From an uncultured virus (IMG/VR IMGVR_UViG_3300042863_002514) (taxonomy: Duplodnaviria; Heunggongvirae; Uroviricota; Caudoviricetes): a stretch of 64,000 nt of DNA. The DNA lies in the IMG/VR virus record IMGVR_UViG_3300042863_002514, positions 1-64,000 of that record; one strand, 5' to 3'. This document shows positions 30,596 to 62,003 of this stretch, piece by piece (position 1 is the stretch's first letter; each line of letters begins with the position of its first letter). The notes below the pieces were generated by a model. It was not told the origin of the DNA. It worked only from the letters and a program-made list of their open reading frames with translations, and searched no databases. Made by a program: the position numbers and the translations under genes.

Positions 30596-31770
30596 CAAAA
30601 TTGAAAATAGGCGTCTATGCTCCGGCATTGAACGAGAACAAAAATGCTGCTGCTTGGGCCCTGTCATGTGCAGATGCTGATTACCGAGTAGTAATAGATA
30701 CAGGCAGCACAGATGATACAAAACAAATTTTACAAGAGAATAAAGTTTCTGTATATGATACATTGATCAGTCCTTGGCGTTTTGATGATGCATATAATAT
30801 CGCAATGAGTTTGTTACCAGCTGATTGTGATGTATGCATTTGTCTTCATATGGATGAACGTCTTGATAACGGCTGGCGAGAACTGTTGGAAAAGTCATGG
30901 ACACCAGAAACCACTAGACTTAGATATACATATATTTGGAATTGGTTGTCACCTGGTGTGCCTGGCCGCATCTGGAATGGAGATCGCATCCATGCGCGAC
31001 GAGGTTTTCGATGGGTAGGTGCGACTCACGAAGGGTTATGCAGCCGTGTGCCTGAAGTTCAAACCAGTTGCCCCGAGCTGCGTATCCTCCACTACCCTGA
31101 ATTCAAAAACAAAAACGGCGATCTACCATTGCTTCAGGAAGCAGTGAGAGAATATCCTCACGATGCACGCATGCGAGCTTATCTGGGCAGAGAATATATG
31201 TATCGAGGTATGAAGGAAGATTGCATCAAAACTTACAAAGAGTTCTTGACAATGCCTTGCTGGAATGTAGAGCGAGGATTTGCAATGCAAAACTTGGCAT
31301 CAGTGGATGATGAAAACAAAGAGTTCTGGTTGAAGATGGCTACTATGGAAACTCCAAATCATAGAGAGCCATTGGTTGAGCTAGCTCGATATTATTATAC
31401 AAAAGCCAATTGGGGTGAATGCTACAAACATGCTGTAAAAGCCCTAGAGATCACTCAACATCCAATGGACTACACTTGTAACGAAGACTCATGGAGTTGG
31501 TTACCACATGATCTTGCCAGCATAAGTGCTTGGAATTTGGGGTTAAGAACAGAAAGCTTAGATTACGCTTCCAAGGCGGTTGAACACAATTCAAATGATG
31601 GCAGACTAAAAAACAACCTTAAGATTATCCAAGATTGGTTTGACAGCAATGTGGAAAAATCAACAGAAACTGTTGTCTTAGTGCCCAACCTTCAAAATAC
31701 AGACAATGATGTGGCAGTAGTCCTGAACGATAATGAGGCTACACTGGACTCAACTGAGGTCAATGAGTAG
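30592..31770 (+). CDS. GT2 glycosyltransferase with C-terminal TPRs (tandem paralog)
   Basis: [21 protein letters not shown] (variant DxD), W.GATHE and YLGREY motifs. Confidence 0.88.
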
Positions 31771-32008
31771 CGTTGGAATTCCGAGGAGGGCGCTTTTGTC
31801 GGTAGACAATGCGTCCTTTCGTCAAATCATATGCGCTTAGCTCTACGGTCACATGATCAAGATGATGGACATTGATGTTGTTGATTCTCAATTTGCCAGC
31901 CAAGTGAGCTAGTATTGTAAGTCCGTTTTCCAATTGTACTCTGAACAGACTGTTGGGACAAACTTCAATAACTGTGCCGTTGACTGTGATGTAATCTTCT
32001 TTGCTCAT
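31760..32008 (-). CDS. infA: Translation initiation factor IF-1
   Basis: MSKED.I...[23 protein letters not shown].....[17 protein letters not shown]. Confidence 0.95.
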
Positions 32009-32893: not shown

Positions 32894-33523
32894 TCAATAC
32901 CATTTAAGTGCGCTAACCATCTGACCGCACACAACAGCAAAAGCCATGCTTACATTATGGCTTCGGATGACGCCGGTTTGAGGAATGCTCACAGCTTGGT
33001 CTACCATGTCAACATCCTTGAGAATGCTTTGTGGAATGCCGCTGTTCTCAGTGCCCATGATCAAGCACATGGTTCGACCAAGGCTGTTGGCATCTAGTAG
33101 GCTCTCATTCCAATCAAACTCATAAACATTGGTGCCTCCCTGCTCAACAAAAACAGGATAGAGCCTCTCCTGGTCCACATAACGCCAAAAGGCATCAGGA
33201 TCGATAGTAACCCCATCCTCTAGGAGTCCTTGTACCCGGTCCACTTGGGTGTAATTTTGAGCTCCCACTAGGCCTCTGTTGTCAGTGCGTCGGCGACCAA
33301 ACACATGCACCTTACGAGCCCCAAAAAGGTGACTGCTTCTGATAATGGTGCTAATGTTCAAGTCGCCCAGCACGTTGAGGCACAGAACTTCAAAATTTTT
33401 GAGGCTAGCTTGGGTTACATTCTTGAGCTCTTCAACTGTGAGAGTTTTTAGCTCATCATGCACGTTGAAGCCGTTGTTGCTCTCTGCAATAGCAGCATCA
33501 CGCAGCAGTCGAACGTCAACCAT
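32894..33523 (-). CDS. SpoU/TrmH-family (SPOUT) RNA methyltransferase
   Basis: N.STIIRS...FG, MGTENSGI and SIPQTGVIRSHNVSMA motifs. Confidence 0.88.
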   Translation of the reverse strand: MVDVRLLRDAAIAESNNGFNVHDELKTLTVEELKNVTQASLKNFEVLCLNVLGDLNISTIIRSSHLFGARKVHVFGRRRTDNRGLVGAQNYTQVDRVQGLLEDGVTIDPDAFWRYVDQERLYPVFVEQGGTNVYEFDWNESLLDANSLGRTMCLIMGTENSGIPQSILKDVDMVDQAVSIPQTGVIRSHNVSMAFAVVCGQMVSALKWY

Positions 33524-33689
33524 CGTTTGTGCTCCATATCAAGGCAAAATGGGTAGCAGTTTCTTGACTGTCAAACCAAAAATGAGTGACATAACATCGC
33601 CAGGTATAGCGTGGCAGATTCTGCTGGCACCACTCTATTTGAGCATCCAACTGTTGTCGGTTACTCTGCACAGTGACAGGCTGGGGCAA
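33516..33689 (-). CDS. Small hypothetical phage protein (about 57 aa)
   Basis: Below the cutoff: (TTG)PQPVTVQSNRQQLDAQIEWCQQNLPRYTWRCYVTHFWFDSQETATHFALIWSTNDG. It fills the gap and overlaps the next start; its own start is uncertain. Confidence 0.6.
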   Translation of the reverse strand: MPQPVTVQSNRQQLDAQIEWCQQNLPRYTWRCYVTHFWFDSQETATHFALIWSTNDG

Positions 33690-34064: not shown

Positions 34065-34220
34065 TCAGTTCCCATCTGCGAGAACGGCACCGATAACGAT
34101 CAGTGCCACTAGAGCGGCAATTCCAAGCCCAATGAATAGGAAAAAGTAGCCTATGATATTAGCTACCATTCCTAGGCCATACACTGCGGCTATCACAGCC
34201 ATAAGCAGAATAAACCACAT
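34065..34220 (-). CDS. Small two-TM membrane protein
   Basis: MWFILLMAVIAAVYGLG...LIVIGAVLADGN; SD AAGGA upstream of ATG 34220. Confidence 0.65.
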   Translation of the reverse strand: MWFILLMAVIAAVYGLGMVANIIGYFFLFIGLGIAALVALIVIGAVLADGN

Positions 34221-34297
34221 TTTTTGCCGATCCTTTTTATCTGAGATCAACATAGCATCTGATATTTTATGATGCAATAGAAGATTTTCATATATTC

Positions 34298-34591
34298 ATG
34301 TTCTGGGTGGTGTTGGAAGAGATCATACTCTCCCCAACGGCTAATTGGGGAGGTAAATTGTCTCAAGTGCCTGGTATGGCGCCGTATAGAGAGCATGATT
34401 TGGATGAATGTTTGGGAAAACCAAAAACTGGCGGTTGCTCGGTACCAGTATGCATTCACTACCTCGAACACAGGGTTCAGCAGCGGCAAACACAACCAAG
34501 GGCATCAGCTACCTTGAATTGCGTCCTGATCGATGAGAATGACCACCTCAGAGCGATCCTTTTTATGCGATGCATCACATCGCAAAGATAA
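34298..34591 (+). CDS. Possible hypothetical protein
   Basis: 97-aa ATG ORF in an otherwise empty interval; no recognisable motif or SD. Confidence 0.3.
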   Translation: MFWVVLEEIILSPTANWGGKLSQVPGMAPYREHDLDECLGKPKTGGCSVPVCIHYLEHRVQQRQTQPRASATLNCVLIDENDHLRAILFMRCITSQR

Positions 34592-34798
34592 TTTTTCAAC
34601 CTACTTTGTCACTTGGTTGTGTATTCCGGGTTCGCACTGGAGAGCATGTGTCAAGACAAACAGCGGTGCTTCCCGGTCCGGCGTATAGGGGCGCCGAGTT
34701 GTTTGCGTTCCTGATGGGTCACCATCCCTTCCGCCCGTGGACACATTACCACGATATCAAAACCTATAATAGTTCGTAGATTATAGGGGAGGTGACGC
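34566..34798 (+). ncRNA. Candidate structured non-coding RNA (multi-hairpin, G-U rich)
   Basis: Six consecutive stem-loops; G-U pairs work only on the + strand; locally GC-rich; no convincing ORF. Confidence 0.5.
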
Positions 34799-34810
34799 TA
34801 GTAACAACAC

Positions 34811-35524
34811 TTAGAGGGGTGTTAACACTAAAAATTTTTGGAGGTTCCAATTTTCCACAACCAACTGCTCTCCCAGCTTGTGGACGCTGTAGGGCCCCGC
34901 TAATGCTTTTTCTAGAACTCTGCATTCGCTACTGCCTGATTCACTCAAATCCACCGGGCCTTGGGGCACAACATTTGTCAAGGTGTCTACCTGAAACGTT
35001 TTTCTGTATGCACGTTCAGAGAGAGTTAGTTGCCCATCTGCCCACGATACTTCTTTCAAGCTGCTATGTTTGAAGAACCTTTTGACATTTTGTTCGTCAG
35101 TGTTTTTGGTTTCACGTACATTGCAGTTTACAGTTTTTTTCAAATTTTTCTCAGTCAAGGGCACAATTTTGTCCTTGGGTAAGTTCACAGTAGTAAATTG
35201 CCAATCATCAATATTACATAGTTTTGTTATATCATTTAACAAGGAAATCAAAGCGTTAGGAAAGTCCAGTGTGCGATTGAGTTCAGCAAAGCATACGTAG
35301 TAACCGTCCTTTGTTGGGGCTGGACTTACATCAGTATCCAACACCATGTAAGGCGCTCTCTCAATAAAATTACTTAAATCGTGCGCAGCATCCGCTTCCA
35401 ATGCATAAAATCCCACAACAACAGCTTCATCATCGCCAATTTTGGACTCATATTCATCCACAGTAACAAGCGGAAGTATCAACCCGTCCAAGTCACCTTT
35501 GCGCAGTCCTTCCTTCAGGTTCAT
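34811..35524 (-). CDS. Hypothetical phage protein
   Basis: 237-aa ORF with ATGA overlap to the upstream gene. Confidence 0.75.
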   Translation of the reverse strand: MNLKEGLRKGDLDGLILPLVTVDEYESKIGDDEAVVVGFYALEADAAHDLSNFIERAPYMVLDTDVSPAPTKDGYYVCFAELNRTLDFPNALISLLNDITKLCNIDDWQFTTVNLPKDKIVPLTEKNLKKTVNCNVRETKNTDEQNVKRFFKHSSLKEVSWADGQLTLSERAYRKTFQVDTLTNVVPQGPVDLSESGSSECRVLEKALAGPYSVHKLGEQLVVENWNLQKFLVLTPL

Positions 35525-36854: not shown

Positions 36855-36952
36855 GTGGCGTTCCTCCAGTAGAGAGTTGGGCACCATGAGTATTTAAGCG
36901 TGACGCTTGATGACTGTTAAATCATGGATCAAAAACACAAATTGTGCCAACC

Positions 36953-36960
36953 CATAAATA
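36953..36960 (+). promoter_or_regulatory. Late-promoter-like box CATAAATA
   Basis: 28 nt upstream of ATG 36989; divergent partner CTTAAATA at 36891-98 on the minus strand. Confidence 0.6.
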
Positions 36961-36988
36961 TGAAAAAACGCGATTAGTGTGGATATCC

Positions 36989-39900
36989 ATGACCAGCAAC
37001 ATTAGACCAGACAGTATCAACACCAACTATCCTGTGGCCGGTTCTGACAATGAAAGTCAGGGTTTCAGAGACAATTTTGAGGCAATGAGAGTTCAACTTG
37101 CTGTTGCGGCTGCTGAAATCTCCAACCTACAAAATACCACAGTGAGGTTATCTGGACCTGTTCAAAGCAACAAGGTTGTTTTAACAAGCGATCCCAACGG
37201 CACCTTGGTTGTAACAAGATTCCAAAACAGCGATTTAGAAAACAGCATCCAATTCCCTGGGACTGGAGCTATCAGGGTTCCAGTGGGCTTGACGGCGCAA
37301 CGGCCAGCAAGTAACCCACTTGCTCCCTCTACAGGTATGATCAGATTCAATACTGATTATAACAAGTTGGAATATTACAACGGCACAGCTTGGTACCTCT
37401 TGTCAGATGGTAGCCCTGGTCAAATTACACAAAATCAAGGTTTATTGAACGCAGTTGCCTTGGTTATCTACAATTTGCCATTTATTCGGGCGCAAGTTAA
37501 TTCTTGGGTACAAGGCAATTATCCCCTGGGTTATTCTTTAACCCCCTCTCAACTGGAAAAATGCAGCAGAGACTTGACTACTATCCTGTTTGCTGTAATG
37601 AATGACACATTGCTGGGCTCTACTTATAACAGTGTTGCAGCTGGCAACGCTTACTGGAACGGTGTTACAAGTGTTTTAATTTATAATACACCTGCGCAGA
37701 AACAATTGACTGTTGATGCGTTAACTTATGCATTGAGTTTGGTTCAAAAAATCGTTGCTAATATCGCTATTGTACCAGATTATCCAGCTGTTGTACCACC
37801 CAGTCAAGTAATTATACCCAGCTTCAGTGGCGGCGTAGTAGCCTATGCTCCTATTGCCAGCAATATTGCGATTATCAATAATATTATCCTAACTGGACCC
37901 AGCACTGAATATGCCAACTTTGTTCCCACCTCGTTGGGAAATTTCAGCGCACAAACACTGGTATATTTGAACCTTGAATTCTTGAGTCAAGAAGTAGTTG
38001 GCTGGATCAACAACCAATTTCCAGCCCCTTACTTTTACGATCAAAACAAATGTGCTCGTGATGTGCAACTGATTGCCGCGTGTGTTATGAGCGATGTTTT
38101 GAGTGGCATCAATCTCAATAGCTACCTAGCTGGCAACAAATATTATGAGTCTGGGAAAACAGTAATACCTGGACAGGTAGAGGTTACTGTTGCGGCCTTG
38201 AACCATCTAAAAACCCTGATGAACGATGTGGTTACAAACACCTCAGTTGCACCTGTTTACAGTTTGGTGCCCCAAGTATTTGACATCGCCTACACTGATG
38301 GTGGACTTTGGACAAATGACATTGTTGCACGTATTGATCTTATCATCAACATTTTGGAGACAGGTCCACAACCCATTCCTGCACCGTCAGGCGGCCCTGC
38401 TGGTCCTGTTGGTGCAACCGGCCCAACCGGCCCCTTAGGAGGTCCCACCGGCCCAGCCGGACCAGGGGGCACACCTGGTGGACCCACACAAGCTGTTCAA
38501 TTCAATAATGGGGGAACATTTGCTGGATCAGCAGATCTCAAATGGGACGGATCTAAACTCAACGCCAGTAAGCTGGCTGTAGACCAAGTTTTAATTGATA
38601 ATGATGTAATCACCAACAGCTTGGCTACAGGTATTTTGAATTTGAATGCCAAAGGGCAAGTTACTAGCTTGAATATCAACAATCCTGGAAGCGGATACAC
38701 ACTTGTTCCAGCTATTACAATTGATCCACCACCACCTGGTGGCGTGCAAGCTGTTGCAGAAGCTGTTATGGGCGCTGTACCTATCGTTGTGCCCTGGGAT
38801 CGTGGCGCTGGATATACGCCAGGCGACGCCTTGACAGTTCAAGGCGGAGTATTCTCTGCACCCACTTTGTTACAAGTGGAAACAGCTAGAATCAAGAGCA
38901 TACTTGTTGATGCCAACAATGAAGGACGTGGGTATAAGCCCAATGATATTCTCACTGTCAGTGGTGGTGATGGACCAGCATCAGCTACTATTATTATCAC
39001 TAGAGTCAAATTGATTGAACCACAAATAATTGCACAAGGTGTGGGATACATCACAGGTGAGGAAATCACTGTTTTTGGTGGTTCAGGCACACCTGCCACA
39101 TCTATTATCTCAGCTGACCCCATTCAAATATCGGGGAAATATGATACAAACAATTTTGTTACAAATCCAGCAATCAAAACCTATACAGTTCCATTCACTA
39201 TTGATCCATTGGATTATAGTGGCGTTACTGTTACGTTAAATGGCACGATTATCCTAGGGGCTGTATACAGCTTTGCGCCCAACGGCCTGCAAACAGATAT
39301 CACATTCTTGCCAGCCTTTTCTCTGCAAGCTGGCGATGTAATTGGTGTATTTTACAATAGTTTCTCAGGTGACGGGGTTGAAACAAACTTTGATCTCAGC
39401 CGTGCAATTATACCAGCTGACTATTTTGATTTGTATGTGACTCTTGACAACGTGAAACAAACACTGGGTACAAACTACACAGTAAGTCAGCCCGCTAGTG
39501 TGACCAGGCTTACCTTTGTGAACCCTCCTAGTAATGGCTCAGTTATTTCTGTTATTTTGGGCGGACGTGTAACAGACATAACAATCAACAACTCAGGGTC
39601 TTATAGAGAACTGCCCAATATTGTGGCTAACCCCGCTGTTGGTGGCAGTGGCCGTGGCCTACTTACTGAATATCAAACAGCAGCCAAATACAGTGTTACT
39701 GAGAGCACTTGCCAACTCCAAAATCAAGGACCTTACTACACCCTGCCACCTTTGACCAATAACAAAGCCACTGGCGGCAGCGGTTACGGCGTTCAATTCA
39801 ATATGGTGAGTGAGATCAACACTCTTATTATTACTGATCCTGGATACTATAGTTTCCTACCCACATTGCTGAACAACCCTGTAGTTGGTGGAACAGGAAC

Positions 39901-42900
39901 TGGCGCTAGGGTAAATCTCAGCTACGGTCTGATTGCTGCCATAGTCAACAGCAGTGGTAGTGGATACACAAATACACCCAAAGCAATTGTGCAACCAAGC
40001 CCGTCTGGTAATACGGCTCGTGTAACACCTGTAATGACAGGCGCCAGAGTAAGTGTTGGTGATTTGGTAGTAACTGGCGTTAGCAAAGGTACTGCACCTG
40101 CTGTTACTAACGTAATTTGGGTAACAAAAGATGGTGATGACAACAATGATGGTTTGGCTGAAGACCGGGCAAAAAGAACCGTCAAAGCTGCTGCTGCAAT
40201 CGCAAAACCATTTACAACAATTTTTGTCCGAAGCGGCAACTATTACGAAAACAACCCCATCTATTTGCCTGAGCGAGTGTCAGTTATTGGCGATAACTTG
40301 CGTAGAGTAAATCTCTTTTACAATAATCCTACAAAAGACTTCTTTTGGGTCAACAATGCCTGTTACATTGCAGGCGTGAGTTTCAGAGGTGGTAAGGCGC
40401 CAGGATTTGCTATCACCTATCCTCCTTTGGCAGGCGATCCCGATCTTCCTCCTGGTGTGCCTGGGGGAGCAGGAGTAATCAGCACAAGTCCTTATGTTCA
40501 AAACTGCACATGTTTTAACGAAACTGGCGGTGGGATGAAAGTGGATGGAAACCTTGCCAAAGGTTTGAAGAGTATGGTTTTGGATGGCTTCACTCAATAT
40601 AACCAAGGCGGTCCTGGCATCTACATTACAAACCAAGGTTACGCACAGTTGGTGTCAATCTTCACTATCTGTACTACAATTGGCACATGGGTAGAAAATG
40701 GTGCAACATGCAGCATAAGCAACAGCAATACCAGCTTCGGAGATATTGGTATTTTGGCTGATGGCATAAGTCCCTATCTCTATGGCGGCAGAATCAAAGC
40801 TGGCACGGGACGATTCCGTGTTGATACTATTGACATCAAGAATATTATCCAACGTCCATTTGTGGGCCTTGTGGCTACTGTTGGTCCTGAGTTCAGCTAT
40901 GTGAGCGAAATACAAGTAATTGATCAAGGACAGGGATATACTAGTACACCCCTAGTGCTGTTGGATCCACCAATTGGTTACGCAAGACAGCGTGCTGAAT
41001 TTCAAGCAGTAGTAACAAGTGGAGCTATTACCGCGTTGAATAATATAGAAAAAGGATCTGGTTATACAGGCGGCGCATACGCAACAATTTACGATCCCAG
41101 TGGTACTGGAGCAATTATTGGTGCGGTGATTTACAGTTGCAGAAGCGATATAGCTAGCGGAGTGGCTATTTTGAATGGTGGTCGCGGTTATGCACTTAAC
41201 GACACCATAACAATTAGTGGAGGAACTTTCCCAAATCTGCAAGTGAATACGCCAGTGTTGCTTCAAGTAGCTGCTGTAGGTTTGGGAGGTGCAGTAACAT
41301 CAGTTTTTGTGATTGATGAAGGCGAATACACAGACCTCCCTATAGTTTCTGGTGCGGCTACCACTAGCAGCGGCATAGGAACTGGATTCAGTTGCAGTAT
41401 CAATTTTGGCGTAAACAGTATAAATCTCGCCAGCAGTGGCACAGGTTACACAAGCCCCACTGTTACTATAAGTGGTGGCGGTGGCATCACAGCCAAAGGT
41501 CGTGCAGAGTATGACAACACAACTGGCACAATTCGTGAAGTCACACTCATAAGTCAGGGCGGTGGTTATATAGCTCAACCCATTGTCACTATTGAGGGTG
41601 GTGGAGGATCAGGTAATGGCGACACTGGTGCAACAGCTATTACTGAGGTAACAGCTGGTGTTGTCACAAATATACGGATTACAAATCCAGGATCAAACTT
41701 TGTAATTGACCCCACTGTGCGCTTCTCAGGAGGCGGGGGCGCTGGTGCCAAAGCTGGCCAAATTTGGTATCAAGCTGTTGGTGCTAGCGTAAACAGTGTC
41801 TTTACAACCTCAAACAACACCTATTTCAATGGTGGGCAAGGCTATCAAATAAATGACCTGCTCGAGGTGGTTGGAGGAGAAGGCACGGCGAGAACTCGTG
41901 TCCGAGTAGTTGCTGTCGCATCAAATGGATTTACGTCTGGTATTGTAACAAGAGTTGTTATTGACACAGCTGGCAAATATTCAAAGATGCCTACACTAAA
42001 TGGCGTTGAAACTCAGTATGTTCTCAGTGGAAGTGGCACAGGATGCTTACTTGATCTCAGTATGGGCCTTGCAGCTATTGATCTAGCAAGCGGCGGTAAC
42101 AGTTACAGTGCTGGTCCTCGAGTAAGATTCCAAGGTGGTGATGCTGAAAGCTTCAGCTTTTTGACTGCTAAGGCAGCAGTCAGTCCTATTGACACAGCAA
42201 ATACATTGCTAGCTATCACATATGCTAGAGACTGGGCATATAATCTGATTGATAACAACCCAACCCCACCTGCCGGATATGTTGGCAGTCCTTATCAAGC
42301 TACTGAGCTGCCTGTTGTTGATCCAGCTTTGCCCAACGGATTGGATGCCACAACTGGGGTGACTGCGTTCTTTACAAATACAAGTCAAATAATAAATTAC
42401 GGGACAAGCCTGAGTCCTTACGACAATGCCAGTAGCTTGCTGCTCCTGAACAAAGCCTTCTTACAAGCAGAGGTATTGGCTTATGTGAATTGGCAGTATC
42501 CAGGATTCTTCAACGCATTAGCTGGTGGTAATCCCACAGAGGCAGCTAGACTACAAGCACTATGCAGCAGAGATGTTGGATACATTGTTGATGCTCTCTC
42601 AATTGACTGTTCAACTGGCGGCTTTGTAAGAAGTATACGAGCAGGACAATCTTACTGGAATGGGATAGTCAGTAAGCTTCCAGGACAAGCTGCGGAAACT
42701 ATTGATGCGATCAATTATATCTTGGCATGGGGGTTGAATCTTATCAACAATATATCAACTCCACCAGGTGCGTACCCAGGTGCACCTTTCCAAACAGCAG
42801 TGACCGCAAGTGTCAATCCAGTGCTTACAAATGGAGTGTATGCTGCCTCTAACTTAACAGCAGCAGTGAATGTTATCACCAACTTGATCTCCAACGGCCT

Positions 42901-44482
42901 GCCATTTACAGGATATAATAGTGCAAGTGCTCTTTTGAAAGCCAATTATGCATTCTTACAAGCTGAAGTAACAGCATATGCAAATACTTTGGTGTCTATG
43001 ACTACAGATGAGAAAGCTAATTTTGCCAAACTCATTGGCCAAGTTATTGACAGCGTCAGTGGTGATATCATTGGGGCTGGGGGTACTCCTGCTATTGCTG
43101 AGGCTAAATTGTATCCAAAATACTACACTATAAGTAGTGCCACGCCGTTGGTAATAAATGGGGGCCCTGTAATACCAGCACCATTGGCAGCAAGCCTTAG
43201 TTTCAGAAGTGGCCAACGCTATTGGGATGGTGTAACCAGTTTGATACCTGGTCAATCAACACAAACTATTCAGGCCATAAATTTCGCCAAGAGTCTAAGT
43301 CAAAACATAGTTCAAAACACTGCTGTTGTTCCGCTGCAAGTTTCTGTAGCACAAGTTACAAATGGAAGTTTGAGTGGTGGAGCAGCTACTTTGAATGGCG
43401 TAACAGCATTTTTCGACCATATAACCACATTTATTAACGATGGCTTAAGTGTAGCCAATATAAGATATACCCATGCAGGACTGCTCCTACAGGCCAACAG
43501 AGCATTCCTCCAAGCTGAAATTGGTGCATGGGTAAGTATTACCTATCCTGGATTTTTATCACCCGCACAACTGACACTGTGTGAACGAGATGTGGGATTG
43601 ATTGTAGATGGCATGACACTTGATGCAACAAAAGGTGGAGTAATTGAGGCCTTGCGTAGTGGTAGAAATTACTGGAACGGTGTAACCAGCTTGATTGGTG
43701 GGCAAGAAAGTCAAACCATCGCTGCTTTGACCCAACTACGCACGTTGGTTATGGACGTTATCACCAATAGTGCAATTATACCTATCCAGGGGGTTGTGCC
43801 ACAAGTAGTCAACCCAGCATTAAATTATGGCAGTTATAGCTCACAAAACTTGGAAGCCTCTTTTGATGTATTGATCAGCACAATAAACCCCCTCTATGGT
43901 CCCAAAAATCTACGCTGGAATAATTCCAGTCAATTGTTACGATTGAACAAGCAATTTATTCAAGCAGAAGTAACGCAATATGTGTTGAATACTTTTGGTC
44001 CAGGGTTCTTAACAGCTGATCAACTGAGCTTGTGTACACGTGACACTGGATTTATTGTGGATGCAGTAGCAGCTGATTTAGTAGGAGCCGGTGGGTCACT
44101 GCTCAGCGATACTGTGGAAAACGAAACAACTGTCACACTTGAAGAAGTTACAGACTATGCACCTTTGGATGATGAAACTGTAAACTTTTATCAAGTAAGT
44201 GTTGCATCTGCATCCAGTCACACTTTTGAATATGTGGGCGCAGGAACAGATATCAACACCTGCTTGCCTCAGTTAGGTGGTGTACCTATACAGGAAAACG
44301 AAGTTGTAATGAGACGCGGTGGGAGAATTTACTACACTAGCACCGATCACAAAGGTGACTTCCGTATTGGCGAAGGATTAGTTATCAATCAGAATACTGG
44401 CACACTTAGTGGACGTGTGTTTGCCAAAAGCTTGTTTGGCCTTGTAACACCATTTATTTTGAGTATTGAGTCTAGTGGTTAA
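36989..44482 (+). CDS. Giant (about 2500 aa) multidomain virion structural/fibre protein
   Basis: N-terminal [15 protein letters not shown] anchor; five helical C.RD.G.I.DA repeats; many G.GY beta repeats; a beta-helix-like block (DGDDNNDG..AKRTV..GNYYENNPI..VIGDNLR); short collagen linker. Confidence 0.85.
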   Translation: MTSNIRPDSINTNYPVAGSDNESQGFRDNFEAMRVQLAVAAAEISNLQNTTVRLSGPVQSNKVVLTSDPNGTLVVTRFQNSDLENSIQFPGTGAIRVPVGLTAQRPASNPLAPSTGMIRFNTDYNKLEYYNGTAWYLLSDGSPGQITQNQGLLNAVALVIYNLPFIRAQVNSWVQGNYPLGYSLTPSQLEKCSRDLTTILFAVMNDTLLGSTYNSVAAGNAYWNGVTSVLIYNTPAQKQLTVDALTYALSLVQKIVANIAIVPDYPAVVPPSQVIIPSFSGGVVAYAPIASNIAIINNIILTGPSTEYANFVPTSLGNFSAQTLVYLNLEFLSQEVVGWINNQFPAPYFYDQNKCARDVQLIAACVMSDVLSGINLNSYLAGNKYYESGKTVIPGQVEVTVAALNHLKTLMNDVVTNTSVAPVYSLVPQVFDIAYTDGGLWTNDIVARIDLIINILETGPQPIPAPSGGPAGPVGATGPTGPLGGPTGPAGPGGTPGGPTQAVQFNNGGTFAGSADLKWDGSKLNASKLAVDQVLIDNDVITNSLATGILNLNAKGQVTSLNINNPGSGYTLVPAITIDPPPPGGVQAVAEAVMGAVPIVVPWDRGAGYTPGDALTVQGGVFSAPTLLQVETARIKSILVDANNEGRGYKPNDILTVSGGDGPASATIIITRVKLIEPQIIAQGVGYITGEEITVFGGSGTPATSIISADPIQISGKYDTNNFVTNPAIKTYTVPFTIDPLDYSGVTVTLNGTIILGAVYSFAPNGLQTDITFLPAFSLQAGDVIGVFYNSFSGDGVETNFDLSRAIIPADYFDLYVTLDNVKQTLGTNYTVSQPASVTRLTFVNPPSNGSVISVILGGRVTDITINNSGSYRELPNIVANPAVGGSGRGLLTEYQTAAKYSVTESTCQLQNQGPYYTLPPLTNNKATGGSGYGVQFNMVSEINTLIITDPGYYSFLPTLLNNPVVGGTGTGARVNLSYGLIAAIVNSSGSGYTNTPKAIVQPSPSGNTARVTPVMTGARVSVGDLVVTGVSKGTAPAVTNVIWVTKDGDDNNDGLAEDRAKRTVKAAAAIAKPFTTIFVRSGNYYENNPIYLPERVSVIGDNLRRVNLFYNNPTKDFFWVNNACYIAGVSFRGGKAPGFAITYPPLAGDPDLPPGVPGGAGVISTSPYVQNCTCFNETGGGMKVDGNLAKGLKSMVLDGFTQYNQGGPGIYITNQGYAQLVSIFTICTTIGTWVENGATCSISNSNTSFGDIGILADGISPYLYGGRIKAGTGRFRVDTIDIKNIIQRPFVGLVATVGPEFSYVSEIQVIDQGQGYTSTPLVLLDPPIGYARQRAEFQAVVTSGAITALNNIEKGSGYTGGAYATIYDPSGTGAIIGAVIYSCRSDIASGVAILNGGRGYALNDTITISGGTFPNLQVNTPVLLQVAAVGLGGAVTSVFVIDEGEYTDLPIVSGAATTSSGIGTGFSCSINFGVNSINLASSGTGYTSPTVTISGGGGITAKGRAEYDNTTGTIREVTLISQGGGYIAQPIVTIEGGGGSGNGDTGATAITEVTAGVVTNIRITNPGSNFVIDPTVRFSGGGGAGAKAGQIWYQAVGASVNSVFTTSNNTYFNGGQGYQINDLLEVVGGEGTARTRVRVVAVASNGFTSGIVTRVVIDTAGKYSKMPTLNGVETQYVLSGSGTGCLLDLSMGLAAIDLASGGNSYSAGPRVRFQGGDAESFSFLTAKAAVSPIDTANTLLAITYARDWAYNLIDNNPTPPAGYVGSPYQATELPVVDPALPNGLDATTGVTAFFTNTSQIINYGTSLSPYDNASSLLLLNKAFLQAEVLAYVNWQYPGFFNALAGGNPTEAARLQALCSRDVGYIVDALSIDCSTGGFVRSIRAGQSYWNGIVSKLPGQAAETIDAINYILAWGLNLINNISTPPGAYPGAPFQTAVTASVNPVLTNGVYAASNLTAAVNVITNLISNGLPFTGYNSASALLKANYAFLQAEVTAYANTLVSMTTDEKANFAKLIGQVIDSVSGDIIGAGGTPAIAEAKLYPKYYTISSATPLVINGGPVIPAPLAASLSFRSGQRYWDGVTSLIPGQSTQTIQAINFAKSLSQNIVQNTAVVPLQVSVAQVTNGSLSGGAATLNGVTAFFDHITTFINDGLSVANIRYTHAGLLLQANRAFLQAEIGAWVSITYPGFLSPAQLTLCERDVGLIVDGMTLDATKGGVIEALRSGRNYWNGVTSLIGGQESQTIAALTQLRTLVMDVITNSAIIPIQGVVPQVVNPALNYGSYSSQNLEASFDVLISTINPLYGPKNLRWNNSSQLLRLNKQFIQAEVTQYVLNTFGPGFLTADQLSLCTRDTGFIVDAVAADLVGAGGSLLSDTVENETTVTLEEVTDYAPLDDETVNFYQVSVASASSHTFEYVGAGTDINTCLPQLGGVPIQENEVVMRRGGRIYYTSTDHKGDFRIGEGLVINQNTGTLSGRVFAKSLFGLVTPFILSIESSG

Positions 44483-44982: not shown

Positions 44983-48978
<3,996 letters not shown>

Positions 48979-61665: not shown

Positions 61666-61670
61666 CTAAG

Positions 61671-62003
61671 TTAAAAACTCACACTTTTGCCACAGCCACA
61701 GGTGTTAGATACATGAGGATTGGTCCAAACAAACTTTTTGCCAAATAAATCGCTTTCCAAGCCCAATGTGCTGCCCAATAATTTCATTACACTATCAGCT
61801 TTGATGGCAATAGTGCCATTTGTAATTTCAATAGTTTCATCAAATTTAGATAGTTGATCATTATTACACAGTTCATAAACGTAACTATGTCCGGAACAGC
61901 CTTTGTTGTCAAGGCCTATTACGAACACTGTTTGGACTGCCTCAGACAATATGAGATCTATGTGCTGCTCAGCTGATGGTGTTAAGTTTATTACAGATTT
62001 CAT
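61671..62003 (-). CDS. iscA: HesB/IscA-family Fe-S cluster carrier
   Basis: I.LT.SA, GCSG.SY and NP....CGCGKS motifs; ATG 62003 overlaps the sod stop. Confidence 0.9.
   Translation of the reverse strand: MKSVINLTPSAEQHIDLILSEAVQTVFVIGLDNKGCSGHSYVYELCNNDQLSKFDETIEITNGTIAIKADSVMKLLGSTLGLESDLFGKKFVWTNPHVSNTCGCGKSVSF

What the first reader, a model, noticed from the sequence alone, without database searches (positions are those of the whole stretch)
34566..34798. Candidate novel structured ncRNA with mutually exclusive helices
Seen: consecutive stems lie in the largest interval lacking a confident gene. They are tgcgatg/catcgca (34566-84); a long bulged hairpin tttgtc..ttccgg[gttcgca]ctggag..gacaaa (34605-60); caaacagc-ggtgcttc/ggggcgcc-gttgtttg (34657-705); gatgg/ccatc (34713-26); cgtgg/ccacg (34736-53); and cctataat/attatagg (34763-87). 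gtcaccatccct (34718-29) can alternatively pair 11/12 with aggggaggtgac (34785-96), closing a multibranch junction. Numerous G-U pairs work only on the + strand, antisense to the flanking minus-strand genes, and the region is GC-rich. It matches no tRNA, tmRNA, SRP, 6S or small ribozyme consensus that I can recognise. Inference: a phage ncRNA or RNA switch; a replication origin is the alternative.
Basis: partly seen in the sequence, partly recalled or inferred. Interest (0 to 1): 0.72.

Follow-up and report, generated by a model that had tools for sequence, protein, structure and literature searches.

The report
New large folded jumbo-phage RNA
The gene-free gap holds the gene for a roughly 470-base, intricately folded non-coding RNA of a family found only in uncultured giant phages and listed in no RNA catalogue; it runs on the opposite strand to the one first proposed, and its job is unknown.

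Summary
The flagged stems are the 5' half of a larger element. Window ~34301-34773, minus strand, is a ~470-nt structured ncRNA gene. It is the best-conserved segment of its neighbourhood: 91.4% and 85.2% nt identity in relatives, against 60-88% for flanking CDS and 42-60% for the spacers. Indels break every frame and substitutions show no codon-position bias.

Motif scans found 20 distinct full-length members, 50-83% identical to ours. On their alignment 12 helices hold: 95.4% of 1276 cells pair, against 75% in shuffles and 35-42% in slid controls, and 49 of 65 pairs carry compensatory changes. G-U outnumbers A-C 142 to 10. A TTGnnn-N16-18-TAnnnT promoter sits at a fixed distance upstream in 14 of 19 members. 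Both results place the RNA on the minus strand.

A near-identical 328-kb record holds a second copy, 66% identical, antisense to its neighbours. Rfam 15 gives no match at E<=10. No match appeared in 185,579 prokaryote species genomes or in six cultured relatives.

Function is unknown. The nearest analogues are GOLLD and ROOL. The proposed plus strand and switch are not supported.

The parts
34301..34773 (-). Gene for the ~470-nt structured ncRNA. The conserved block is 34301-34765. The 5' end is inferred about 7 nt after the -10 element. The 3' end is undefined.
   Evidence: The block is 91.4% (L014) and 85.2% (L016) identical, while the spacers on both sides are 42-60%. 12 helices covary in 20 members. 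CM hits come from R1, R2 and R3.
34780..34807 (-). Sigma-70-type promoter: -35 TTGTTA (34807-34802), 16-nt spacer, -10 TATAAT (34785-34780).
   Evidence: It matches 10 of 12 consensus positions. A TTGnnn-N16-18-TAnnnT match has its -10 end 40-48 nt before the GGCGG anchor in 14 of 19 members. Mean score is 8.4, against 7.35 (sd 1.0) in shuffles and 7.2 in the antisense control.
34736..34753 (-). H1 hairpin (CGUGG / CCACG).
   Evidence: All cells are paired in 20 members and 4 of 5 pairs carry double changes. The closing pair is GU:11, CG:7, UA:2.
34713..34735 (-). Invariant GGCGGAAGGGA strand followed by H2 hairpin (GAUGG / CCAUC). UCAGGAACGCAA follows at ~34703-34714.
   Evidence: H2 is 100% paired and 3 of 5 pairs carry double changes. 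The two invariant purine-rich strands were the scan motif, so they are invariant by construction.
34678..34697 (-). H3 hairpin (UCGGCG / CGCCGG).
   Evidence: 5 of 6 pairs carry double changes and 95.4% of cells are paired.
34626..34676 (-). H4 (CCGGG / CCCGG) enclosing H4b (CGCUG / CAGUG, 34665-61 with 34639-35).
   Evidence: H4 is 99% paired with 4 of 5 pairs doubly changed. H4b is 98% paired with 4 of 5 doubly changed.
34597..34619 (-). H5 hairpin (CAACC / GGUUG). It is an optional arm, deleted in 3 of 20 members.
   Evidence: Read by eye from alignment A7: GAUUC/GAAUC, GACC/GGUC, UUGUC/GACAA, UGCCC/GGGCA and others. MAFFT columns are out of register there, so counts are poor.
34567..34583 (-). 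H6 hairpin (GCGAUGU / GCAUCGC) with a conserved loop.
   Evidence: 98.5% of cells are paired and 6 of 7 pairs carry double changes.
34528..34558 (-). P7 (GAUCG / CGAUC) with a short inner extension.
   Evidence: 100% paired and 3 of 5 pairs carry double changes.
34490..34524 (-). P8, a hypervariable long hairpin.
   Evidence: 11 of 11 pairs carry double changes and 82.7% of cells are paired. The complete stem swap in L016 is visible.
34380..34488 (-). Central multi-branch domain. It comprises closing helix UGCCG/CGGCG, P9 (UGAAC/GUUCG, 34479-65), helix UGAAUG/CAUUCA, P11 (CUGGU / GCCAG, 34448-28) with invariant loop ACCGAGCAACC, and hairpin UUUGG/CCAAA.
   Evidence: P9 is 100% paired with 5 of 5 pairs doubly changed. 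P11 is 93% paired. On the model-fitted alignment A9, 90.2% of cells pair and 26 of 34 pairs are doubly changed, with the caveat that the alignment was fitted to the model.
34326..34355 (-). P13, the 3' hairpin (UACCUCCCCAAU / GUUGGGGAGAGUA). It is followed by GAGUAUG and the tail ACACCACCCAGA (34311-34302).
   Evidence: A 9-13-bp hairpin is present in all 18 members folded, with different distal sequences. The 4 pairs counted vary on one side only (C-G to U-G), which is again consistent only with the minus strand.

Best explanation
Window ~34301-34773, minus strand, is the gene of a stable, trans-acting, structured non-coding RNA of about 470 nt. It belongs to a previously uncatalogued family carried by uncultured giant phages of the Rak2/121Q-like supergroup.

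Shown here:
- It is non-coding.
- It folds into at least 12-14 helices kept by compensatory substitutions.
- It is under stronger purifying selection than the neighbouring protein genes.
- It lies on the minus strand.
- It is preceded at a fixed distance by a sigma-70-type promoter.
- It occurs as two diverged paralogues in the most complete record of this phage. The second copy is antisense to its neighbours, so it is a transcription unit of its own and not a UTR.

Inferred:
- Host RNA polymerase transcribes it early in infection.
- It has no intrinsic terminator, so its 3' end is made by processing.
- The invariant purine-rich junction strands (GGCGGAAGGGA, UCAGGAACGCAA, CCGCU, ACCGAGCAACC) build a compact tertiary core.
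- That core acts as an RNA machine or scaffold (an RNA-only assembly, RNP or ribozyme), in the manner of the phage-borne large RNAs GOLLD and ROOL, rather than as a base-pairing regulator.
For: Conservation. The block is 91.4% and 85.2% identical in relatives whose flanking CDS are 60-88% identical and whose spacers are 42-60%.

Not coding. Frame-breaking indels are present. Substitutions at codon positions 1, 2 and 3 number 12/11/8, 11/12/9 and 15/19/13. 5 of 17 loci have no ORF of 70 aa or more over the RNA, and the others have ORFs on varying strands. The local ORFs have no Pfam or PHROG hit.

Structure. On 20 distinct sequences, 65 pairs in 12 helices give 95.4% of 1276 cells paired. Shuffles give 75.4% (0 of 500 reach the observed value) and slid controls 35-42%. 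49 of 65 pairs carry changes on both sides. The 5' domain alone gives 95.7% and 20 of 26. RNAalifold found compensatory changes in 53 of 74 predicted pairs.

Strand. G-U cells number 142 and A-C cells 10 in ten helices. In the four closest sequences, six one-sided changes keep G-U on the minus strand, and five of the same pairs become A-C on the plus strand.

Promoter. It sits at a fixed distance in 14 of 19 members.

Second copy. R2 scores 115.7 bits (E 1.6e-29) and R3 143 bits. The copy is 66% identical to copy 1, and the real neighbouring genes lie on the other strand.

Distribution. Each of 9 further fragmentary virus records searched holds one copy. Their CheckV completeness is 9-17% at 39-71 kb, which implies very large genomes.

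RNA libraries. Three metatranscriptome studies each hold one short contig (204-265 nt) that lies inside the block. This is weak evidence.
Against: The function is not shown by anything here.

Folding energy is only marginally better than shuffles: z is -1.5 to -1.6 on the minus strand.

No intrinsic terminator follows the RNA. Only 1 of 19 members has a terminator-like site, so the 3' end is undefined.

The RNA-library evidence rests on contigs. It carries no strand information and DNA carry-over is possible. One contig (run X3) runs 54 nt beyond the block through the predicted promoter, which suggests read-through or DNA.

The family was collected with a motif scan. The two scan motifs are therefore invariant by construction, and members with variant motifs were missed.

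The alignment of the 3' third is unreliable.

No cultured phage carries the RNA, so no experiment has been reported on it.

Unlike GOLLD and ROOL, it has no tRNA genes nearby: 0 of 17 loci within 6 kb. I also saw no palindromic loops that would suggest symmetric kissing contacts.
Confidence: 0.72

Rival explanations
1. It is an origin-priming or R-loop RNA, like ColE1 RNA II or the T4 oriF/oriG transcripts. The promoter-driven, terminator-less transcript would prime DNA replication, and the two copies would mark two origins.
For: It has its own promoter and no terminator. Two copies lie about 106 kb apart in the 328-kb record. The locus lies in the broad minimum of cumulative GC skew at 25-40 kb. 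Comparison with ColE1 and T4 origins is recalled knowledge, not from a call.
Against: About 14 helices, and invariant unpaired strands kept across sequences only 50-58% identical, go far beyond what a primer transcript needs. No AT-rich unwinding element or iterons were noticed next to it. GC skew in phages mostly follows transcription direction.
Confidence: 0.07
2. It is a cis-acting leader or riboswitch that controls the downstream minus-strand genes: the 70-aa membrane protein, the phrog_10980 protein and the SpoU methylase.
For: In 8 of 17 loci the RNA precedes same-strand genes, with no terminator in between.
Against: Copy 2 and its relative L119 have their real neighbouring genes on the opposite strand. 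Contexts differ among members. L014 and L015 show a separate TTGACA-N17 promoter-like site between the RNA and the next gene (read by eye). I found no expression platform overlapping an SD or a terminator. No riboswitch family matches.
Confidence: 0.05
3. It is a very divergent member of a known RNA class (group I intron, RNase P RNA, tmRNA, GOLLD, ROOL, HEARO/omega RNA, or phi29 pRNA) that the Rfam models miss.
For: Its size and complexity fall in the range of these classes. Some short strings recall RNase P motifs, such as GAACCCGG and GAGCAACCGCC. That comparison is from memory only.
Against: Rfam gave no hit at E<=10 in the block for the window, L014, L016 or 15 diverse members. ARAGORN found no tmRNA. 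The flanking genes are complete, so there is no interrupted host gene for an intron. Only 1 of 17 loci has a TnpB gene, and it lies 2 kb away. The RNase P-like strings are not collinear with RNase P.
Confidence: 0.05
4. It is a protein-coding gene or genes, for example the 97-aa plus-strand ORF 34298-34591.
For: Open frames of about 100-146 codons exist on the plus strand in the four close relatives.
Against: The N-terminal third is frameshifted in L016. Substitutions show no third-position excess. Long stretches are identical at all codon positions, while neighbouring genes are saturated. 5 of 17 loci have no ORF of 70 aa or more. No family hit was found.
Confidence: 0.01
5. It is a DNA-level element, such as a packaging site or a protein-binding array, and not an RNA.
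For: It lies next to virion structural genes in 8 of 17 loci.
Against: The G-U against A-C asymmetry (142 to 10) and the one-sided C-G to U-G changes make sense only for a single RNA strand. A promoter sits at a fixed distance. No repeats typical of binding arrays were seen.
Confidence: 0.03

Closest known systems
GOLLD RNA (RF01998) and ROOL RNA (RF03087)
   Same: These are large (over 450 nt), many-helix, orphan non-coding RNAs carried by phages and prophages. Their folds are supported by covariation and their biochemical function is unknown. GOLLD was first seen in lake metagenomes. PMC12286853 (abstract and the section 'Biological relevance of homo-multimers' read) shows that both form RNA-only multimeric nanocages.
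   Different: The Rfam models give no match at E<=10. This RNA is shorter, about 470 nt. No tRNA genes lie within 6 kb in any of 17 loci; the typical tRNA adjacency of GOLLD and ROOL is recalled, not taken from a call. It was found only in giant-phage contigs and in none of 185,579 prokaryote species genomes by motif plus model. No palindromic kissing loops were noticed.
phi29 pRNA (packaging RNA)
   Same: It is a phage-encoded, promoter-driven structured RNA that works as an RNA part of a phage machine. In 8 of 17 loci this RNA lies directly after two virion-structural-protein genes and a PhoH ATPase gene.
   Different: pRNA is about 170 nt (recalled). There is no Rfam match. Copy 2 and other members lie in unrelated contexts. 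No link to packaging has been shown.
Large ribozymes (group I introns, RNase P RNA)
   Same: The size is similar. The fold is a multi-domain one with invariant unpaired junction nucleotides and a possible long-range helix (GGCGG with CCGCU).
   Different: No model matches. There is no interrupted gene and no recognised catalytic-core motif. The long-range helix is invariant, so it is untested.
Other uncatalogued large RNAs of jumbo phages noted earlier in this scan (e1-5707246, e1-5754762, e1-6081114, e1-5707295, e1-5926527)
   Same: They are the same kind of object: 340-750-nt folded RNAs in gene-free gaps of giant phages, with GOLLD and ROOL named as nearest analogues. These are AI notes and are unchecked by me.
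   Different: The sequence look-up found no look-alike stretch in any earlier window. Their contexts differ (endolysin, UvsW, MoxR/VWA, replication genes). Two of those notes are marked 'part of it fell'.

Membership tests
GOLLD (RF01998) / ROOL (RF03087) | Match to the family covariance model. | tested here: not met
   cmscan of Rfam 15 gave 0 hits at gathering score on the window. At E<=10 it gave no hit in the block for the window, L014 or L016, and 0 hits of any kind in 15 diverse members.
GOLLD / ROOL | Frequent adjacency to tRNA genes in phage or prophage DNA (feature recalled). | tested here: not met
   ARAGORN found 0 tRNA genes in 17 loci of 6-12 kb around the RNA, and 0 in the 64-kb window.
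GOLLD / ROOL | Homo-oligomeric RNA-only cage (PMC12286853). | not testable with these tools
   This needs mass photometry or cryo-EM of the transcript.
Group I intron | Interrupts a host gene, with a P1-P9 core that matches the Rfam model. | tested here: not met
   The upstream 237-aa protein matches phrog_13138 over positions 6-226 of 227, so it is complete. The downstream ORF is separate. No Rfam hit was found.
RNase P RNA | Match to bacterial or archaeal RNase P models, with the P4 pseudoknot and CR-I to CR-V. | tested here: not met
   No Rfam hit at E<=10. The short look-alike strings are not collinear (comparison from memory).
tmRNA | tRNA-like domain with paired 5' and 3' ends, and a tag ORF. 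| tested here: not met
   ARAGORN found none. No Rfam hit was found.
HEARO / omega RNA / TnpB reRNA | Lies directly beside or overlaps an IscB/IsrB/TnpB gene. | tested here: not met
   Pfam scan of 133 neighbouring proteins found one TnpB-like protein (L109), 2 kb from the RNA, in 1 of 17 loci.
Riboswitch / cis-regulatory leader | Fixed position upstream of a regulated gene on the same strand, with an expression platform. | tested here: not met
   Copy 2 (L045/L099) and L119 are flanked by genes on the opposite strand. 1 of 19 members has a terminator-like site.
The new family itself (working definition) | A 430-480-nt RNA with helices H1-H4b, H6, P7-P9, P11 and P13, and with invariant strands GGCGGAAGGGA, UCAGGAACGCAA, CCGCU and ACCGAGCAACC-like. 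| tested here: met
   The window copy scores 175 bits with R2. The identical copy in G001 scores 150 bits with R3. All 12 helices are present.

The most novel reading that the evidence does not exclude
This is a new class of large catalytic or self-assembling RNA specific to giant phages. Host polymerase makes it early. Its invariant junction strands form an active site or inter-subunit contacts. Its two diverged paralogues per genome work together, for example as a hetero-oligomer, or one copy near virion genes and one near a 3'-5' exoribonuclease and RNA-repair genes. It would be an RNA component of a phage machine with no counterpart among known RNAs.
Probability: 0.25. Interest if true: 0.9.

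Novelty: new variant of a known kind. Interest (0 to 1): 0.74.

Why it matters
Bacterial and phage RNAs longer than about 400 nt with complex conserved folds are very rare. Nearly every one studied has turned out to be a ribozyme, an RNP core or, recently, an RNA-only nanocage.

A new family of this kind would give structural and phage biologists a fresh, well-defined target. It is held more tightly than the surrounding protein genes, duplicated within a genome, and restricted to giant phages. The 20-sequence alignment, the helices and the promoter are given here.

It also shows that gene-free gaps of jumbo phages hide RNA genes that annotation pipelines and Rfam miss.

Tried and rejected
- Folding z-scores were marginal on both strands and were not used as support.
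- BLAST of the gap and of 10 kb around it against 50,697 phage records gave no match.
- The seven near-identical IMG/VR contigs are 100% identical in the block and give no covariation. Exact 20-mer scans found only those seven.
- Distant relatives (30-42% aa identity, L009-L013) have a 97-171-aa ORF in the slot and no RNA. Their proteins do not match the gap. I rejected the idea that the gap is a decayed copy of that gene.
- Weak R1 hits in G005 (22 bits) and G002 (inside a 672-aa ORF) were not confirmed by R2 or R3.
- The two bacterial MAG hits of the motif scan failed model R2 and are taken as chance.
- Weak R3 hits in XbC2 (E 0.09, 76 nt) and PA5oct (E 0.3) are taken as chance.
- RNA-library contigs leave the flanking genes uncovered. 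This is no evidence, because the flanks are too diverged for the runs found.
- The four-sequence RNAalifold helices UGAU/AUCG, GAUCA/UGAUC and the tail pairing UCUGAGGUGGU/ACCACCCAGA were not upheld. The family supports P7 (GAUCG/CGAUC) instead, and the tail pairing holds only in the closest relatives.
- An apparent alternative pairing of GGGAG with a downstream YCCC stretch, and direct-repeat-like co-variation of two 3' segments, were seen by eye only and are left open.
- mafft-qinsi was not usable.
- The last motif scan used a gap minimum one base too large and found only one known member.
- Six literature searches found no description of this RNA. One more search failed on term format.
- No consistent protein partner was found among 133 neighbouring proteins.
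Full report
**Where the finding lies.** The window is the first 64 kb of a 119-kb IMG/VR virus record that CheckV rates 34% complete. Seven near-identical records of up to 328 kb exist.

The finding sits in a gap between two minus-strand genes. One is a 237-aa virion structural protein (34811-35524, phrog_13138, E 1.4e-40). The other is a 70-aa membrane-like ORF (34065-34277). Two more genes lie upstream on the same strand: a further structural protein and a PhoH ATPase. A SpoU-type RNA methylase and an IF-1 homologue lie downstream.

tblastn of the structural protein places the phage in the Rak2/121Q/Atu_ph07-like jumbo-phage supergroup, at 30-46% aa identity in 87 records.

**First checks.**
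- Rfam 15 gave no hit at gathering score in the whole window. At E<=10 it gave only three chance-level hits in 34100-35000.
- ARAGORN found nothing.
- Folding energy is barely better than dinucleotide shuffles on either strand: z -2.05 and -1.50 for 34566-34798, and -2.07 and -1.60 for the whole gap.

Taken alone, these results would have left the finding undecided.

**Conservation.** The seven near-identical contigs are 100% identical in the gap. Relatives at 30-42% aa identity carry a protein gene in this slot instead.

The single metagenome scan supplied intermediate relatives. L014 and L015 have 77% and 76% aa identity in the neighbouring gene, and L016 has 57%. L025 is identical to L014 in the block.

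In these relatives a block of about 465 nt (window 34301-34765) is 91.4% (L014) and 85.2% (L016) identical. The flanking CDS are 60-88% identical, apart from one poorly aligned PhoH segment in L016 at 41.8% with 139 gaps. The spacers on each side of the block are 42-60%. The finding's coordinates therefore cover about half of the real element.

**Not a protein gene.**
- One-base indels interrupt every frame among the four sequences.
- The best candidate is the 97-aa plus-strand ORF at 34298-34591. Its first third is frameshifted in L016.
- Substitutions at its codon positions 1, 2 and 3 number 12/11/8, 11/12/9 and 15/19/13, so there is no third-position excess.
- Across the wider family, 5 of 17 loci have no ORF of 70 aa or more over the element. 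The rest have ORFs on varying strands.

**A second copy and a family.** Partial covariance models were built from the four sequences: R1 for the central domain and R2 for the 5' domain.

They revealed a diverged full-length second copy in the 328-kb record G001, about 106 kb from the first. R2 scored 115.7 bits (E 1.6e-29), and the spacing of the R1 hit fits. The copy is 66% identical to copy 1. It is not in the window's own shorter record.

Its real neighbours are a paralogous family of 100-123-aa proteins and two membrane proteins. They lie on the opposite strand. The RNA therefore cannot be a UTR or leader of neighbouring genes.

Motifs shared by both copies were used for gapped pattern scans of IMG/VR. 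These returned 32 and 17 stretches, which reduce to 21 distinct sequences. 20 are full length, and they are 50-83% identical to the window copy.

With model R3, each of 9 further records searched holds one copy, and G001 holds two. Those 9 records are 39-71 kb at 9-17% CheckV completeness, so they are fragments of very large genomes.

The same motif scan of one genome for each of 185,579 prokaryote species gave two hits. Both failed model R2.

R3 found nothing in four distant jumbo UViGs or in Sinorhizobium phage Phosso. It found nothing significant in Atu_ph07, 121Q, RaK2, XbC2 or PA5oct.

**Structure.** Alignment A7 is a MAFFT alignment of 20 distinct sequences and was not fitted to any structure. 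On it I counted a hand-assembled structure of 65 pairs in 12 helices.

| Measure | Observed | Control |
|---|---|---|
| Cells forming standard pairs (of 1276) | 95.4% | 75.4% +/- 0.8 in shuffles (0 of 500 reach it); 35-42% with partners slid by 1-3 columns |
| Pairs with changes on both sides | 49 of 65 | not compared |
| Cells with changes on both sides | 255 | 73 in shuffles |

Other results agree:
- RNAalifold on A7 independently predicted 74 pairs, 53 of them with compensatory changes.
- The 5' domain alone gives 95.7% paired, with 20 of 26 pairs doubly changed.
- The central multi-branch domain, aligned to model R1, gives 90.2% paired and 26 of 34 pairs doubly changed. That alignment is fitted to the model, so it leans towards the structure.
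- A 3' hairpin of 9-13 bp with different distal sequences is present in all 18 members folded.
- Helix H5 is present with swapped sequences in most members and deleted in three (by eye).

The 3' third between the central domain and the last hairpin is not reliably aligned. Its pairings, including a possible pairing of the 3' tail, remain open.

**Strand.** Four observations agree.
- In the four close sequences, six one-sided changes keep G-U on the minus strand. Five of the same pairs become A-C on the plus strand.
- In ten covarying helices of A7 there are 142 G-U cells and 10 A-C cells. The helices were chosen with G-U counted as a pair, which biases this count somewhat.
- The closing pair of H1 is standard in 20 of 20 members on the minus strand and in 9 of 20 on the plus strand.
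- Pairs in the last hairpin vary only from C-G to U-G.

The RNA is on the minus strand, the same strand as the flanking genes in the window.

**Promoter and ends.** A sigma-70-type site lies just upstream on the minus strand: TTGTTA, 16 nt, TATAAT, at 34807 to 34780, matching 10 of 12 positions.

Across 19 members, the best TTGACA-N16-18-TATAAT-like match in the 90 nt upstream has its -10 element ending 40-48 nt before the GGCGG anchor in 14. In 15 of 19 the -35 element begins with TTG. The mean score is 8.4, against 7.35 (sd 1.0) for shuffles and 7.2 for an antisense control. This puts the 5' end near 34773.

Downstream, only 1 of 19 members has a terminator-like hairpin with a U run. The 3' end is therefore probably made by processing and cannot be placed more exactly than about 34300.

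**Expression.** Three metatranscriptome runs from three studies each hold one short contig that lies inside the block: 34340-34543, 34512-34717 and 34593-34763. Their likeness to the window falls in the 95-99%, under-90% and 90-95% bands respectively.

These are contigs without strand information, and DNA can be present in such libraries. The X3 contig continues 54 nt through the predicted promoter. I count this as a weak hint of expression. It also warns that read-through transcripts, or DNA, may contribute.

**Context.**
- In 8 of 17 loci the RNA follows the PhoH, structural protein, structural protein trio on the same strand.
- In 4 of 17 loci, covering two RNA subtypes, an Rv2179c-like 3'-5' exoribonuclease gene lies 0.2-1.7 kb away. 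In copy 2's locus an RlaP-type RNA-repair nucleotidyltransferase also lies nearby.
- Other members lie near Hsp70, DNA ligase, CTP synthase, and in one case a TnpB gene 2 kb away.
- No protein family accompanies the RNA throughout.
- No tRNA gene lies within 6 kb in any of 17 loci.

A FastTree of A7 groups copy 1 and copy 2 of this phage lineage together (support 0.989), apart from trio-context copies of more distant phages. This suggests lineage-specific duplication or gene conversion (midpoint-rooted, short alignment, so tentative).

Four of the listed stems are real helices of the RNA: 34566-84, the inner part of 34657-705, 34713-26 and 34736-53. Being hairpins, they read the same on both strands.

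The other proposals are not supported by the family:
- the long bulged hairpin at 34605-60;
- the outer arm of the third stem;
- the hairpin at 34763-87;
- the proposed alternative pairing with 34785-96.

The last two lie in the poorly conserved promoter region.

**What it most likely is and does.** Shown here: a non-coding, independently promoted, multi-helix RNA gene of a new family. It is under stronger constraint than the neighbouring protein genes, duplicated in the genome, and found only in giant-phage contigs.

Inferred: host RNA polymerase makes it early. It folds around its invariant unpaired strands into a compact tertiary core. It acts in trans as an RNA machine or scaffold. My rough split within this reading:

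| Reading | Odds |
|---|---|
| RNA-only or RNP architecture | about 0.45 |
| Ribozyme | 0.2 |
| Decoy for a host factor | 0.15 |
| Remainder | to the rivals listed |

The closest analogues by kind are GOLLD and ROOL. Both are large phage-borne RNAs that form RNA-only cages (PMC12286853; abstract and one section read). This RNA is not a member of either family, because their models do not match and the tRNA context is absent.

**Prior description.** Six full-text searches found no description of this RNA. The library lacks most subscription journals, so this is not proof of absence.

Earlier AI notes of this scan list other uncatalogued large RNAs in jumbo phages. None resembles this one by sequence.

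Noticed in passing
G001 (record of L007) about 117300-117740, minus strand; L045:1415-1876:-: A second, 66%-identical paralogue of the RNA lies about 106 kb from the first in the 328-kb near-identical record. It is antisense to its neighbours. It is absent from the window's own 119-kb record, which is a fragment.
   Followed up: yes
L099:4132-4707, L102:7373-7930, L104:2522-3100, L119:3715-4311; L099:7701-8585: An Rv2179c-like 3'-5' exoribonuclease gene lies 0.2-1.7 kb from the RNA in 4 of 17 loci. An RlaP-type RNA-repair nucleotidyltransferase lies near copy 2. The exoribonuclease may be the enzyme that makes the 3' end of the terminator-less RNA, but this is untested.
   Followed up: partly
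window 31760-32008 (-), 32894-33523 (-): The phage encodes an IF-1 translation initiation factor homologue (PF01176, E 1.4e-22, scored on the matching ORF of the near-identical record, L125:8728-8973). It also encodes a SpoU/TrmH-type RNA 2'-O-methyltransferase (E 3.8e-17). Both lie within 3 kb of the RNA. The same genes recur in relatives L100, L122 and L123.
   Followed up: partly
window 33516-33689 (-): This 57-aa ORF weakly resembles the C-terminal part of the 97-140-aa protein family that occupies the RNA's slot in more distant jumbo phages (L011_4764 tblastn E 0.29; shared W..N...F.F.d...A..F.L.W pattern seen by eye).
   Followed up: no
window 36944-44482 (+) and 44986-48963 (+): There is a 2512-aa ORF with collagen-like G-P-rich tracts and repeated blocks. 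A 1325-aa ORF fills the GC-rich (0.56-0.61), strongly AT-skewed stretch at 45-48 kb. They are presumably fibre or structural proteins and were not examined.
   Followed up: no
window 61666-61999: This is another 334-nt stretch without an ORF of 60 aa or more in a greedy ORF map. It was not examined for conservation or structure.
   Followed up: no
L045:502-1394 (+): Three or four tandem paralogous ORFs of 100-123 aa share a motif (FP[DE]L[WY][CT]W..LN...E.W) next to RNA copy 2. They have no Pfam hit.
   Followed up: no
3' part of the RNA, window about 34302-34400, and the same part of family members: The segment before the last hairpin and the segment after it look like direct repeats that change together among members, for example GUUCAUGG twice in L056 and UCUGAG twice in L052. 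The GGGAG arm could also pair with a downstream YCCC stretch. This might be a pseudoknot or an alternative fold. It was seen by eye only.
   Followed up: partly
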